Assembly: GCA_965153285.1 (NCBI GenBank)
Contig: OZ229118.1
Reading direction: 5' to 3' (one strand)
Source of the DNA: Podarcis tiliguerta
Lineage: Eukaryota
Length of the DNA: 64,000 nt
Shown here: piece by piece, positions 43,101-49,100 of the stretch
Layout of the letters: each line of letters opens with the position of its first letter
Position numbering within the stretch: position 1 is the first letter of the stretch
Made by a program: the position numbers and the translations under genes
Notes under the pieces: model-generated
Seen by the model: the letters and a program-made list of their open reading frames with translations, nothing else
What the model was told of the DNA's origin: nothing
The model's database searches: none

Positions 43101-46100
43101 TACAAATATTTTCATAAATAAATAACTTGCAGGTACTTCTTGGTAGGAGTAGTGGTGCTTTTCCTGGCGAGGTACTTGTCTTCTAAAATTTATGAAGAAT
43201 TTAAAAACATTCTGGTTTACCCAGGCATTTAATGGCTGAAATGTTCTGTTCCTGAAACCCTTGAAATTTTTAGCTGTGAAGATATGCCTGTTTTAGGTGT
43301 GAGAGAAAAACAAAATCCTGTATTTTTTATTTGTTTTGCTTGTTGCCCTAGGCTCCTTTGGGAGGAAAGATGGGATAGAAATTTAATAATGCTGTAAAGT
43401 AATATTTAAACATATACACAGTATTGTAGGAGGGCAACCAAGATAAGGGGGCCTGGAAATTAAGCCATTTGGGGAATGGGGTGAGAGAATTGAGTATGCT
43501 TAGTCTAGAGAAGAGAAGACAGAGGTAACCATCTTCAAATATCTGAAGGGCTGTCATGTAGAAGATGGAGCAAACTTGTTTTCTTCTGCTCCAGGGGGTG
43601 GCTCGAATCAATGGCTTCAAATTACAAGGAAGAAGATTCCCAGTAAACATTGGGGAAAACTTTCTGCCACTTAAGAGCTGTTAAGAGTTGTTAAGTGGAA
43701 TGGACTACCTCAGAAGGTAATAGCCTCTCCTCCATTGGAGGTATTTAAACAGAAGTTTGGGGGTAATTTTTCAGAGATTCCTTCGGAGTTAGACTAAATG
43801 ACATGGGGTCCCTTTCCAACTCAGTTATTCTATGAACTTCTTTCTTCAGTTCAAAGTAGAGTCAGTATAGTATAGTATAGTAGTCAGTTTGCTAGACTGT
43901 TTGCTAAAGTGACCCAGAATCAAACCCTTGGAAGAAAGGCACTAAAGTATTTATAACTAGCCGTTCTTTGCTTGTTAGCTATTTCTTTTTGCTTTTCCAC
44001 TTAGAAATTTCCACTGAAGAGGAGAGAGAGGTTGGTGATAAGAAAGATACATCTCTTTCAAAATCTAAAAGGAAACATAAAAAGAAACATAAAGAGAGAC
44101 ACAAGATGGGAGAAGAGGTCATCCCACTGAGAGTCCTTTCAAAGTATGTTAAAGCATTTTTGAGTCTTACTGTATTGACAGTAAAATACAGTGTTGGGCT
44201 GCTTGTGATCCAGAAGCTGCTGTTTGGCTACTTCCCAGATATGAAGTAGTCTACACAAGAACTGTGTTTTAGTGTTCTTAGGTACCAACCGCCCATGAGA
44301 AAAAATATTACGTAATTTTGACCTGTCAATAGTGCTGCTTATGTGTTTCCATTCAACTTGTTTCAGTTCAGGAGTGTTGCTGCTGCAGCTTATATTTTGT
44401 CTTATTGAAGCACACAAACTAGCCTGTTACGGTAAATAAAAACTCCTCTGCTGATGCAACTTGTTTTACATTTGTAAAACAAATCAATTTTACCTATTAT
44501 ATCACTGTGAAATTGATATTTGCATTGCATTGTGGATAGATGAAATGGCTTGTTCTCTTTAAAAAAAGAATTTCATGTTTTAAAGCAAGTTTATTGAACC
44601 TTTTTATCCTTTTGAAATGCTTACTTTGTCATTCGCCTTCTGTGTACATTTAAAATCTGTGTACATGTGAGTGGCTCTTACATATATACTATCAAATGGA
44701 GGGTCCAGGATGTACACCAGATCCTTTGCTAACAATTTCAAAGAAATCATTTTGAGCAAAGGATTGAGCCTAAAAGATTAGATGGCCTTTACTTCAAAGT
44801 TTGTTCCAGTAGAGATTTTAAAACAGTTTGTGGGCCAGTGAAAGATACTTAAAAAGGTACTGACCATAGATGGAAGAATTTGAATGTTTTCTTCATTCTG
44901 TGCCACACCTTTTTAAAATAGCTGTATCCAAGTGAGAGGAAAAATTCTCAGGCACATTCAGCCAGTTCAACAGTTATACAGCAATATAAATTAAATATGA
45001 TAATTTGTTCCTGTTGAAATCAAAGAGATGCCAATGTTCTAAGCTTTGGCCAGGTTATGACTCTTCAGAAGTTGATAATAAAACTTTATGCAGTTTTAGA
45101 GCAGTCGTTCTTATTATACATGTTGCAAAAGCACATTTTAAAAAAGAGTAAAATATAGGTGAATGAAGTCGATATCAAAAGTAAATACTTCTTTATTCAT
45201 ACCAAAGCTTCATAGGAGCAATGGCCACTTCTGTATTAACTCTTACAGTGGTACCTCGGGTTAAGTACTTAATACATTCCGGAGGTCCGTTCTTAACCTG
45301 AAACTGTTCTTAACCTGAAGCACCACTTTAACTAATGGGGCTCCTGCTGTCGCTGCGCCGCCAGAGCATGATTTTTGTTTTCATCCTGAAGCAAAGTTCT
45401 TAACCTGAAGCACTATTTCTGGGTTAGTGGAGTCTGTAACCTGAAGCGTATGTAACCTGAGGTACCACTGTATATGCATTAATACAAACAACTTTGTAAC
45501 TTAATATTCCACATGTTTAAGAAAGCATTGTCTGTACATAGCCCTTATCCGCATGGCTCATAGTCCATCACCATTGCTAAAGTGCAATTCCAGATTTCAC
45601 ACAACAGAGTTGCATGTCAGCAACGGTAAAGGGTTACAGCAATGAACACATCACACATAGAAAATACCTACTTTTTCCTTTTGACCAATAGACCTGTTGA
45701 CATTTATGCCAGTAAAATGACTTACTGTTTGACGTCTTGCCAGTTAATCCCTATACCTTCTTTTCACTAGAGGGAAATTAATATATTTTCTGATTGTGGA
45801 ATCGTGCAGTACTAAAACATAGAAGCACTTACTTTAAAAATAGCCAGCAAATACCTCCATGTTAAAATACAGAAAATCCTTCAGTATGACGATTGAACTG
45901 GTAACCCTATTTGAAGAAGTTCCACATGCAATAAATGTAATTCCATATTTTTGGATTTTTTGCTAGTAAATAATTGAGTAATGTTGAGTAAGGTGATTAA
46001 ATAATTGAGTAATGTTGAGTAAGATGATTAAATAGGATTTGCCATCACTAAAATATGAAAGCACTTTTTTAAAGGAATAAAACAAGTACTTCCACATTAA

Positions 46101-49100
46101 AGTAGTGGGTAGTCCCTTACATTAGGTGAGAATTTTTCCTGTGAAAGAAGATAGACGTCATTGCTTTAAAAAAATAAATCAAGCAGCTTTATTTTGAAAT
46201 TATATCCATAATCCATAGAGCTCAAGAGCATTGTTCAACAATCTTAAAACACAAAATAAGTTATAAAATTATCAAAATTATAAAGACTATACATAAAAAG
46301 CTGAAGCAAACAATTCACAATTACCTAGTTTTAAATTCAGTACAGTTCTTTTAGCATACTGACTGAATCACTGTCAGATGTGACTTTTTTGAACAAACAA
46401 AAGCTTACCAGCACAATTACAGAATTCTTCTTAGAACCTTCCTTCATCAGGGACTACATACTGTGTAGTTTGTTGCCTGCTTCAGGCTGCAGTTCTAACT
46501 GCATTTGCTTGGAAGTTCGACCCACTGAGATAAATGAGATTTGCTTCCAAGTAAGTGTGCATGTAAGTGTGCACAGACTTCTGTTTTCTATTTCAGTCAG
46601 TGTAGCAAAACATGCTTTTCTACAGGAGCAGAGAGCATCTTGAAAGCAGGGCAGGTAAAGCAAGTTTTCTCTAGAATATCCTGTTACAGAGATTCTGCAC
46701 ACCTTGCTGGAACATGGATTAGAATATAGCAGATATTGCAGTCAAGTAAACAAATGTCTGGCAGTGGTTCTTTCCATGATGTTGAATTGAACAATACAAG
46801 AACACTCAAGTTACAAACAACTCATGGTGGAGTTGGACTCACCTCTGCCAAAACATGGAAGCACTTACCTTTTTTTGTACACACAGAAAGCACCTCCATG
46901 TTAAAGTAGAAGGGTTCCACATAAAGCAGCACCTTTTGCTATCCAAAGCATTAAATATAGCAAATTATTTAGTTTTAATATAAACATATTTGAGAAAAAT
47001 ACTTCCCATTTTGCTTACTTACCTTGCTCATTCGCTTTGGTGTTTTTTTTCCTTTTCAGCTTCCTTTAATAAAGTGTTGGCCAAGCTTCTATTTATTCCA
47101 TACTTTAGTAAAGGGTACCATTGAGCCTTTATCTCAGAGTCATTAGGTAGATCATTTGTTATTTAAAGCCCTCTCTCAGAGAATGTATGTTCCTAGATGG
47201 GTCAGAATCTTTATTTTTCTTCCTCTCTCATCCTGCCCTCCTGGTGTCATCATCAAGGATTAACACTATTACCCCAAGATACCATCTTTTTAAAAAACAA
47301 AATAAAACCCATATCTGCTTATTTGATAGCACAGATTAGGTTAACAATGAATCATTCTCTCAATTGTACTATCCCCATTGTGTTTTTATCAGCAAGGCTC
47401 TAGCTGTTTGAAGAAACATCTCCATGTTAAATGAATGTAAATATATAATTTGGTTCCATGCTGGGCTTTCCTCTCAGCTGCATTTGAACAGTAGAAATGT
47501 TCCTATCTCCATAGATTTGGGAACATTCTAACTAGTTTTTCTTACCTTTTTTAAAAAATACTCAACTGGTTAGCAGAGGCAGGTTGACCAGTCTTTGTGA
47601 TTTACTTTTACATTTTTGGTATTAATCTGTGATACACTGGTGTCTTTTAATGTAGAAATGTACAAAGTAAGATTGCATATTGAGGATTAATAAAGGTAAT
47701 GCATAATTAAACTCTGTGTATTGATCCTGAGTATGTACTGTCGCTTAAGAACTTAAGTTTAGGCCAAGGTCTAGTCTAGCGGTCTTTGCCATACTTTTAG
47801 GAATCAATCGCTAATGGATCCACTGGAAATTGATCATTATGTCATGGACTATCTAGTGGCTGCTAATAATTTATTAGTAACTGCTAATCTTAAGAAGGGG
47901 GACGCGGGTGGCGCTGTGGGTAAAACCTCAGTGCCTAGGCAGGGTGAACTCCTCTCGTTCGGTCCCAGCTCCTGCCCACCTAGCAGTTCGAAAGCACCCC
48001 TAAGTCCAAGTAGATAAATAGGTACCGCTTTATAGTGGGAAGGTAAACGGTGTTTCCGTGTGCGGCACTGGTGCTGGCTCACCAGTTCAGCTTCGTCATG
48101 CTGGCCACGTGACCCGGAAGTGTCTTCGGACAGCGCCGGCTGCCGGCCTCTTGAGTGAGATGGGCGCACAACCCTAGAAGAGTCAGACAAAAGTCCCATC
48201 TTGTCCAGCATCCGGTTCTCACAGTGGTGAACCAGATGCCTATGGTAAACCCACATGCTACTAGCCATGGTTGCTGTATTCTGTCTTAGCATTTAGTGGA
48301 CTACTGTGAGAACAGAATGCTGGACTACTGTAGTTTGGCTCTTTTCATGTCCTTTTGACAGGAGTGCAACAGCACTCTCACCACTTGTGTTACCCAGTAA
48401 CTCATGTTCAGATTTGTTATTGTGGTTTTTAAAAAGCATGATCCACCAGTCTCTTTTCTAATCACTTTAGAAATGAATGGATGCAGCTGAAGCAAGAATA
48501 CTTGACACTACAGAAAGCCAGTATGTCCTCTTTGAAAAAAGCAATGGCCCAAATAAAAACGTTGACTGCTGGAGAAATGGAAACAGATGCCTGTATACCT
48601 AACCAGCCTGCAGCAAGAAATGGAAAATGTAAAGAAAATTGTGAGGTTCTTCATAGCTTGTGCTTATCCTTAACAGAAGAAATGACATGCTAATTGTAGT
48701 TTAGTGATTGGATATTTGGATATTAAGAAGTATGTAGTGTTTTCTTGGAAGCAGAAAGGACATTAAGAGGGGGGAAATTTCAGATCTTGAAAATTTCTCT
48801 AGTTCTCATCATGCAAAATTGATTTTCTTTAACCAGTTGCACCGATTTGTATGTATACAGGAGAACTTGTGAAATGTTACAAAAACTGAAGAATAAACTA
48901 GTGTTCAGCATCCAAGATCAACCTTTGGGCTTTAGAACCAAGAGGTTGCATATCAGTAAATGAATTTTCTGGCATTAGGTTTCTGTATGCTGTGTAGTTA
49001 GGGTCCAGCACCACTCAGTATATACCCATTTAAATGACTAACTTGGTTTCATTAATTTCAGTGGGTCTGCTCTAAGTAGGGCCAACTTTGGATACAAGCC

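What the first reader, a model, noticed from the sequence alone, without database searches (positions are those of the whole stretch)
45565..46913. Squamate miR-302/367 pluripotency cluster antisense inside a LARP7 intron
Seen: four foldable hairpins on the minus strand, ordered 302b-like, 302a-like, 302d-like, 367, all invisible to the ORF track. Known: this embryonic, Oct4/Sox2-driven cluster sits antisense in the equivalent LARP7 intron in human and chicken. Here miR-367-3p is invariant, while all three miR-302 3p arms differ from the recalled mammalian sequences outside the seed. There are three intact miR-302 copies rather than the four in human.
Basis: partly seen in the sequence, partly recalled or inferred. 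Interest (0 to 1): 0.7.

Follow-up and report, generated by a model that had tools for sequence, protein, structure and literature searches.

The report
Lizard miR-302/367 cluster with decayed copy
This is a wall lizard's copy of the well-known early-embryo microRNA cluster miR-302/367, lying backwards in an intron of the LARP7 gene, with three intact miR-302 hairpins, a likely decayed remnant of the fourth, and a second cluster elsewhere in the genome with the same targeting seed that would buffer the loss.

Summary
Confirmed, and mostly ordinary. Three mir-302 hairpins and one mir-367 pass Rfam cut-offs on the minus strand of a LARP7 intron (44144-48470) of a lacertid, Podarcis-like lizard. 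All four fold well. miR-367-3p is identical to human. The cluster is known in mammals and chicken, and aca-mir-302 and aca-mir-367 are already listed for Anolis. This scan noted it before on other DNA (cartilaginous fishes).

Three additions:
(1) The missing fourth copy left a likely trace at 46140-46200, in the miR-302c slot: 38 of 61 ungapped identity to hairpin 3, 0 of 5000 shuffles, seed destroyed, no fold. A bias-corrected search does not support it (E 1.5).
(2) Hairpin 3 varies among relatives at least as fast as flanking DNA, while hairpin 1 is constrained.
(3) The genome has a second cluster of five hairpins with the same AAGUGCU seed (contig C22); two match read-supported Anolis candidates.

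The lizard LEFTY 3' region carries seed sites. Embryonic expression and Oct4/Sox2 control are inferred, not shown. The labels 302b and 302a are supported by sequence; 302d rests on position only.

The parts
44003..44143 (+). LARP7 coding exon 5' of the host intron (7th coding exon found)
   Evidence: tblastn 47/47 to Zootoca LARP7; spliced contigs
44144..48470 (+). LARP7 host intron, GT..AG, 4327 nt; equivalent of mammalian intron 8 if one non-coding first exon is counted (that exon not mapped)
   Evidence: junction 44143>48471 in 4 of 4 RNA-like runs; ends read
48471..48628 (+). next LARP7 exon ([10 protein letters not shown]...), 1.56 kb upstream of the cluster on the minus strand
46842..46912 (-). 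hairpin 1, miR-302b ortholog; 5p starts 46907, 3p starts 46867; basal UG, apical UGU and a downstream CNNC present
46140..46200 (-). likely decayed fourth miR-302 hairpin in the 302c slot; seed destroyed, does not fold
   Evidence: 38/61 ungapped to hairpin 3, 0/5000 shuffles; best non-self hit of model R1; nhmmer E 1.5; fold z +0.9 to +1.3; single-copy in genome
46042..46108 (-). hairpin 2, miR-302a ortholog; 3p starts 46067 with A instead of U; one C:G to U:A double change relative to human
45807..45872 (-). hairpin 3, miR-302d by position; seed intact; most variable among relatives
45565..45632 (-). mir-367 hairpin; 3p (from 45589) identical to human
47017..47024 (-). candidate splice donor ending exon 1 of an antisense host transcript, about 110 nt upstream of hairpin 1 (1 of 4 such motifs in the intron; untested)
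   Evidence: host-gene layout in 10.1101/497131
47344..47442 (.). candidate Sox-like (47349, 47381) and Oct-like (47435-47442) motifs 430-530 nt upstream of hairpin 1; consensus motifs recalled, no enrichment test
45192..45197 (-). candidate AATAAA polyadenylation signal downstream of mir-367 (another at 44590-44595; untested)
46508..46565 (.). remnant of a multi-copy repeat in the enlarged hairpin 1 to hairpin 2 spacer
   Evidence: many short contigs pile up here
46211..46212 (-). site where 3 of 4 relatives carry about 10 extra bases that read as the miR-302 seed (X13) or a one-letter variant (X12, X14); unexplained, may be chance
   Evidence: table 4; chance of such a word in the spacer 0.02-0.15

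Best explanation
The region is the lizard ortholog of the miR-302/367 cluster, with three intact miR-302 hairpins and one miR-367 hairpin antisense in a LARP7 intron, which are likely cut from their own antisense transcript in the early embryo and would repress mRNAs carrying AGCACUU sites, likely including the Nodal antagonist LEFTY. Shown: the hairpins, strand, host intron, seeds, and seed sites downstream of the LEFTY stop codon. Inferred from mammals and chicken: a separate Pol II promoter between the cluster and the next LARP7 exon, Oct4/Sox2 control, epiblast expression, and Drosha/Dicer processing. The fourth copy (302c slot) has likely decayed in place before these lacertids diverged. 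The third copy shows no sign of constraint outside its seed. The loss would cost little because all copies share one seed and a second five-hairpin cluster with the same seed exists on contig C22.
For: Rfam hits; folding; LARP7 exons and junction; ZGRF1 head-to-head upstream. Hairpin-1 5p is identical to chicken miR-302b-5p; miR-367-3p is identical to human. Anolis mir-302 gives both arms, 4 mature and 3 star reads. Hairpin-1 pieces in a related species differ at 6 of 507 positions against 191 of 3390 in 16 other intron pieces. Relic. Contigs of 4 of 4 relatives cross the cluster with net length -60 to +2 nt, leaving no room for an extra hairpin. LEFTY has 2 seed sites in 1.5 kb (P 0.022) and 3 in 2.1 kb (P 0.0045), against 0 in 6 of 6 other TGF-beta-family loci and 0 of 60 window tiles with 3 or more. 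Second cluster.
Against: No small-RNA or stranded embryo data for this species were examined, so expression is untested. Hairpin 3 only just passes the Rfam cut-off and lacks basal UG and CNNC at the assumed cut sites. The relic is not significant under nhmmer's composition correction (E 1.5), is only P 0.035 by best-of-three local alignment, and was missed by the two-arm matrix top 15 and by Rfam at E up to 10. Its query, hairpin 3, was chosen after seeing three. The 2.1-kb LEFTY span was chosen after seeing the sites, and the UTR end is unmapped. LEFTY sites could be served by the C22 cluster alone. Promoter motifs are untested consensus matches.
Confidence: 0.85

Rival explanations
1. The 46140-46200 match is chance similarity in AT-rich intron DNA; the fourth copy was deleted outright, or squamates never kept it.
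For: nhmmer E 1.5 with an 8.7-bit bias correction; an unrelated plus-strand stretch scores 12.3 bits against 13.4; 10 of the 38 matches lie in the T/A-rich loop.
Against: Ungapped over 61 columns, on the right strand and in the right slot. It is the only non-self offset with 37 or more of 61 matches in 128 kb. 0 of 5000 dinucleotide and 0 of 5000 local-block shuffles reach it; arms alone 28 of 46, P 0.002.
Confidence: 0.25
2. The LARP7 cluster is largely vestigial in lacertids: only hairpin 1 and mir-367 matter, hairpin 3 is drifting, and the C22 cluster supplies most AAGUGCU activity.
For: 7 listed substitutions in 66 nt of hairpin 3 in X12 and X13 against a 3.5-3.8% background (P about 0.01); two of them turn G-C into G-U pairs in this genome; five well-folding same-seed hairpins on C22.
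Against: Hairpin 3 still folds at z -5.6 and has no listed change in its seed. Hairpin 2 shows a compensatory double change. X12 and X13 share their changes and are not independent. Only 40 of 128 difference rows were displayed.
Confidence: 0.2
3. Hairpin 3 is miR-302c rather than 302d, or the paralogs were homogenised by conversion, so the lost copy cannot be named.
For: Hairpin-3 5p is 19/22 to human 302c*; its 3p is closer to 302b (21/23) than to 302d or 302c (19/23 each) (by eye).
Against: Human order is b-c-a-d-367; hairpin 3 lies between the a-like hairpin and mir-367; the relic lies between b and a.
Confidence: 0.15
4. The three-copy state is an assembly error.
For: None found.
Against: Same-species runs hold 0.83-1.00 of sampled words (3 runs; one may be the source of the assembly); 4 of 4 relatives are collinear.
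Confidence: 0.02

Closest known systems
Human/mouse miR-302b/c/a/d-367 cluster, antisense in LARP7 intron 8 (Rfam RF00668, RF00735; 10.1101/497131; PMC4703056)
   Same: Host gene, strand, order b..a..d..367, AAGUGCU seed, identical miR-367-3p
   Different: Three intact miR-302 copies plus a likely relic; span 1348 nt against 684 nt in human (PMC2254598); 2-4 changes per 3p arm outside the seed
Anolis aca-mir-302 and aca-mir-367 (miRBase entries in PMC4858913 supplements 2 and 3)
   Same: Star arm identical to hairpin-1 5p; same seed
   Different: Only one mir-302 entry is listed there; its 3p arm has the human/chicken 302b end, while hairpin 1 has two changes; Anolis copy number could not be seen
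Chicken miR-302/367 cluster (PMC10379376, PMC8774308)
   Same: miR-302b-5p identical to hairpin-1 5p
   Different: Chicken has four miR-302 plus miR-1811
MirGeneDB Mir-430-P1 to P4 (PMC8789304 supplement; PMC10435380 supplement)
   Same: Four paralogs are reconstructed for the gnathostome ancestor; the family is curated for Anolis, Gekko, Python and Sphenodon
   Different: Per-species paralog content for squamates was in alignment rows that the tool cut off, so whether a paralog loss is already recorded could not be checked
Mouse miR-302 plus miR-290-295 redundancy (PMC4741278; PMC7564603)
   Same: Two unlinked clusters with one seed in one genome
   Different: The lizard second cluster lies beside C-type lysozyme-family genes, not shown to be beside NLRP12; orthology to miR-290/371 untested

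Membership tests
mir-302 (RF00668 / Mir-430 family) | Covariance-model score at or above gathering (55 bits) | tested here: met
   70.4, 61.9, 55.1 bits
mir-302 (RF00668 / Mir-430 family) | AAGUGCU at nt 2-8 of the 3p arm of a stable hairpin | tested here: met
   the register assumes a 23-nt product as in human
mir-302 (RF00668 / Mir-430 family) | Processed mature and star reads | not testable with these tools
   No small-RNA reads served; the Anolis ortholog of hairpin 1 has 4+3 reads
mir-367 (RF00735) | Model score above 54 bits and conserved 3p arm | tested here: met
   84.2 bits; 22/22 to human
miR-302/367 cluster | Antisense in the LARP7 intron before the exon encoding EWMxLKxEYL | tested here: met
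miR-302/367 cluster | Order 302b-302c-302a-302d-367 with four intact miR-302 | tested here: not met
   Three intact; the c slot holds a likely relic. Copy number is described as variable in the family (Xenopus has one), so this marks a variant and does not exclude membership
miR-302/367 cluster | Own spliced, polyadenylated antisense host transcript | tested here: inconclusive
   Candidate donor and AATAAA; no antisense junction among the joints shown in unstranded contigs
miR-302/367 cluster | Oct4/Sox2/Nanog-dependent promoter, epiblast expression | not testable with these tools
   Only consensus-like motifs seen
mir-302 (relic at 46140-46200) | Seed and hairpin fold | tested here: not met
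   Seed absent, z +0.9 to +1.3; a remnant at most
miR-430 (RF01413), C22 cluster | Model score at or above gathering (47.3 bits) | tested here: not met
   39.8, 36.7, 33.1 bits; seed and fold are met, so it works like the family but is not filed in it here

The most novel reading that the evidence does not exclude
Lacertid lizards are dismantling the LARP7 miR-302 cluster copy by copy (302c dead, 302d drifting) because a second five-hairpin AAGUGCU cluster, shared with Anolis, has taken over part of the early-embryo seed dose. This would be a reptile counterpart, or an older relative, of the miR-290/371 cluster usually thought specific to placental mammals.
Probability: 0.2. Interest if true: 0.55.

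Novelty: new member of a known kind. Interest (0 to 1): 0.27.

Why it matters
The cluster itself is textbook and its presence in a lizard is expected. In mouse, deleting miR-302a-d is lethal and is worsened by loss of miR-290 (PMC4741278, passages). A lizard with one decayed copy, one drifting copy and a second same-seed cluster is a natural test of how seed dose is shared between clusters in amniote gastrulation. It also corrects a review's statement that reptiles have four copies; the species that review lists as its reptile is Dasypus novemcinctus, which is an armadillo (own knowledge).

Tried and rejected
Metagenome scan for miR-367 orthologs: 1 hit (L004), no Rfam match, a chance match in DNA that looks non-vertebrate and retroelement-like; dropped. 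Sequencing runs: no RNA holder listed on record. Four runs guessed to be RNA showed LARP7 splicing and only thin, unstranded intron cover, which says nothing on the antisense transcript. A first relic guess at 46180-46262 from the seed-like insertion: no similarity or fold in this genome; left unexplained. A 5p-like stretch at 47412-47431: P 0.07 in shuffles, no hairpin; not called a relic. Bacterial promoter scan: irrelevant. A 16-letter mature-arm pattern gave 27 genome matches, 3 here and 24 scattered. A gapped stem pattern gave 46 rows and no cluster, and missed the C22 cluster. The MirGeneDB alignment in PMC8789304 was cut by the tool, so squamate paralog counts were not seen; bioRxiv supplements were closed. 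Two papers were not held. Searches for a printed report of a squamate copy loss or second cluster found none, but the library omits most subscription journals and the miRBase and MirGeneDB web records.
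Full report
OBSERVATION. An Rfam scan of the whole window gave 5 hits at gathering score: mir-367 at 45565-45632, mir-302 at 46842-46912, 46042-46108 and 45807-45872, all on the minus strand, and an unrelated tRNA-like hit. All 4 of 4 fold as hairpins on that strand with z -3.6 to -6.1 and 0 of 200 shuffles as good; each plus strand folds worse. Genome-wide searches found these 3 mir-302 hits and this 1 mir-367 locus only (65 and 67 candidates scored, so lower bounds).

HOST AND ORGANISM. The plus strand encodes LARP7. A first-exon query returned LARP7 proteins, best from Zootoca vivipara, and tblastn placed the coding exons from 36930 to 57470, mostly at 90-100% identity. 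Contigs of 4 of 4 RNA-like runs join 44143 to 48471 across a GT..AG intron that holds the cluster. The next exon matches human LARP7 and lies 1.56 kb upstream of hairpin 1 on the minus strand; in mouse, Larp7 exon 9 lies within the 2.1 kb upstream of the host gene. ZGRF1 runs the other way from a CpG island at 32.5-34 kb. A LEFTY exon from this genome is 100% identical to Podarcis lilfordi, so the animal is a lacertid, probably a wall lizard.

WHICH COPY IS WHICH (compared by eye with printed tables). Hairpin-1 5p is 23 of 23 identical to chicken miR-302b-5p (PMC8774308 Table 2, passages) and 21 of 21 to the Anolis aca-mir-302 star arm (PMC4858913 supplement rows). Its 3p is 21 of 23 to human 302b (PMC2254598 Table 2 and PMC9209417 Table 1, passages); Anolis has the human form there, so these changes are not squamate-wide. 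Hairpin-2 5p is 18 of 22 to human 302a*, its 3p is 19 of 23 to 302a, starts with A, and one C:G pair has become U:A. Hairpin-3 3p is 19 of 23 to 302d, 19 to 302c and 21 to 302b, and its 5p is 19 of 22 to 302c*; no 302d-5p reference was obtained, so the d label rests on position. miR-367-3p is 22 of 22 identical to human.

THE MISSING COPY. The cluster spans 1348 nt against 684 in human. Local alignment of each hairpin to the masked intron found one full-length match, 46200 to 46148 on the minus strand, between the b and a copies (P 0.013 for hairpin 3, weaker for the other two). Ungapped, it matches hairpin 3 at 38 of 61 positions; 0 of 5000 dinucleotide shuffles and 0 of 5000 local-block shuffles of the spacer reach this; it is the only non-self offset with 37 or more in both strands of the window; arms alone give 28 of 46, P 0.002. 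A sequence-only model of the three hairpins ranks it first among non-self hits in the window (13.4 bits, E 0.005, next 12.3). Against it: nhmmer with composition correction gives E 1.5 and a two-arm matrix did not rank it in its top 15; best-of-three local alignment gives P 0.035; Rfam does not list it up to E 10. It has no seed, does not fold and is single-copy. I put it at about 0.7 that this is the decayed 302c. Four related datasets (4 of 24 listed runs, 4 organisms) are collinear across the cluster with net length -60 to +2 nt and about 1.5-4% differences, so none has room for an extra intact copy. Three of the 4 carry about 10 extra bases at 46211 that read as the seed or a one-letter variant; chance for such a word is 0.02-0.15, and I leave it unexplained.

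CONSTRAINT. In a related species, three contig pieces over hairpin 1 differ at 6 of 507 positions against 191 of 3390 in the 16 other single-copy intron pieces shown (the three pieces overlap; one piece alone P 0.017; repeat-derived pieces left out). Hairpin 3 shows 7 listed substitutions in 66 nt in X12 and X13, above a 3.5-3.8% background (P about 0.01), none in the seed. Only 40 of 128 rows were displayed, and X12 and X13 share these changes. mir-367 has 0 listed changes in 68 nt (P 0.07-0.09, weak).

MECHANISM. In mammals the cluster has its own Pol II host gene with the hairpins in its first intron, under OCT4/SOX2/NANOG control (10.1101/497131, parts 1-3 of 5; PMC3769259, passages). It is expressed in epiblast of chick and mouse (PMC7564603 section 4.2), represses LEFTY (PMC4703056, part 1 of 5 and passages) and is essential in mouse, redundantly with miR-290 (PMC4741278, passages). 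Here a candidate donor lies at 47023, Oct- and Sox-like motifs at 47344-47442, and AATAAA at 45197; none is tested. I fetched 7 of 44 TGF-beta-domain loci; one is LEFTY. It has 2 seed sites of 7 nt or more in 1.5 kb after the stop (P 0.022) and 3 in 2.1 kb (P 0.0045, span chosen after the fact), none on the antisense strand, against 0 in the other 6 loci and 0 of 60 window tiles with 3 or more. This supports conserved regulation by this seed, not by this locus in particular.

A SECOND CLUSTER. Two read-supported Anolis candidates with the same seed (95 and 15 reads, scaffold GL343252.1) prompted a miR-430 model search, which hit G000:C22:34.749 Mb below cut-off. Of 23 AAGUGC words in 40 kb there, five on the plus strand within 1.15 kb sit in 3p arms of hairpins with z -4.2 to -8.9, and two more are the opposite strands of two of these hairpins. 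All five match miR-430-clan or related models below gathering. The first and fourth match the two Anolis arms at 20 of 23 and 18 of 22, in the same order (by eye). A TATA box with CCAAT boxes lies about 0.9 kb upstream (by eye), and C-type lysozyme-family genes lie 7-16 kb downstream. The Anolis paper's main text does not mention them. MirGeneDB may already hold them; I could not check.

COMPARISON AND VERDICT. The cluster is a member of a well-known kind: reviews give four miR-302 plus miR-367 in mammals and chicken, Anolis entries exist, and Mir-430 is curated in four lepidosaurs (PMC10435380 supplement rows). PMC8789304 lists four ancestral paralogs, but its alignment rows were cut, and this may hide a recorded squamate loss. 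Searches found no paper on a lizard copy loss or second cluster. Earlier notes of this scan describe the cluster in cartilaginous fishes (unchecked). Interest 0.27: an expected ortholog, with a probable relic and a second same-seed cluster as modest additions.

Noticed in passing
G000:C22:34748560-34749745 (+); L012:384-1573: Second cluster of five hairpins with the AAGUGCU seed in the 3p arm (z -4.2 to -8.9), below Rfam cut-offs; two match read-supported Anolis candidates; TATA and CCAAT boxes about 0.9 kb upstream; C-type lysozyme-family genes downstream. Worth its own study.
   Followed up: partly
L005:912-3000 (G000:C3:30929512 onward): LEFTY 3' region with three miR-302-seed sites and one miR-367 7mer-A1 site overlapping an AATAAA.
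   Followed up: partly
window 45244-45472: 229-nt element with 25-nt terminal inverted repeats flanked by TA and very high copy number in related runs; likely a Tc1/mariner-type MITE, 90 nt downstream of mir-367.
   Followed up: partly
window 47899-48180: High-copy SINE-like repeat in the presumed promoter region; family not identified.
   Followed up: no
window 45967-46028: 31-nt tandem duplication between hairpins 2 and 3, absent in relative X5.
   Followed up: partly
window 47412-47442: Stretch resembling a miR-302 5p arm (12 exact bases) that overlaps two Oct-like motifs; not significant (P 0.07), no hairpin.
   Followed up: yes
window 46211-46212: Three of four relatives carry about 10 extra bases that read as the miR-302 seed or a one-letter variant on the minus strand.
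   Followed up: partly
window 48203-48325: 37-nt inverted repeat with a 49-nt spacer; probably repeat-derived.
   Followed up: no
window 48629-48640: Alternative donor of the LARP7 exon: contigs end at 48628 in three runs and 48640 in one, matching the 591 and 595 aa Zootoca isoforms.
   Followed up: no
window 2822-2890 (-): tRNA-like Rfam hit (39.5 bits) with a broken acceptor stem; probably tRNA-derived repeat.
   Followed up: no
window 1-34000 (-): ZGRF1, head-to-head with LARP7 across a CpG island at 32.5-34 kb.
   Followed up: partly
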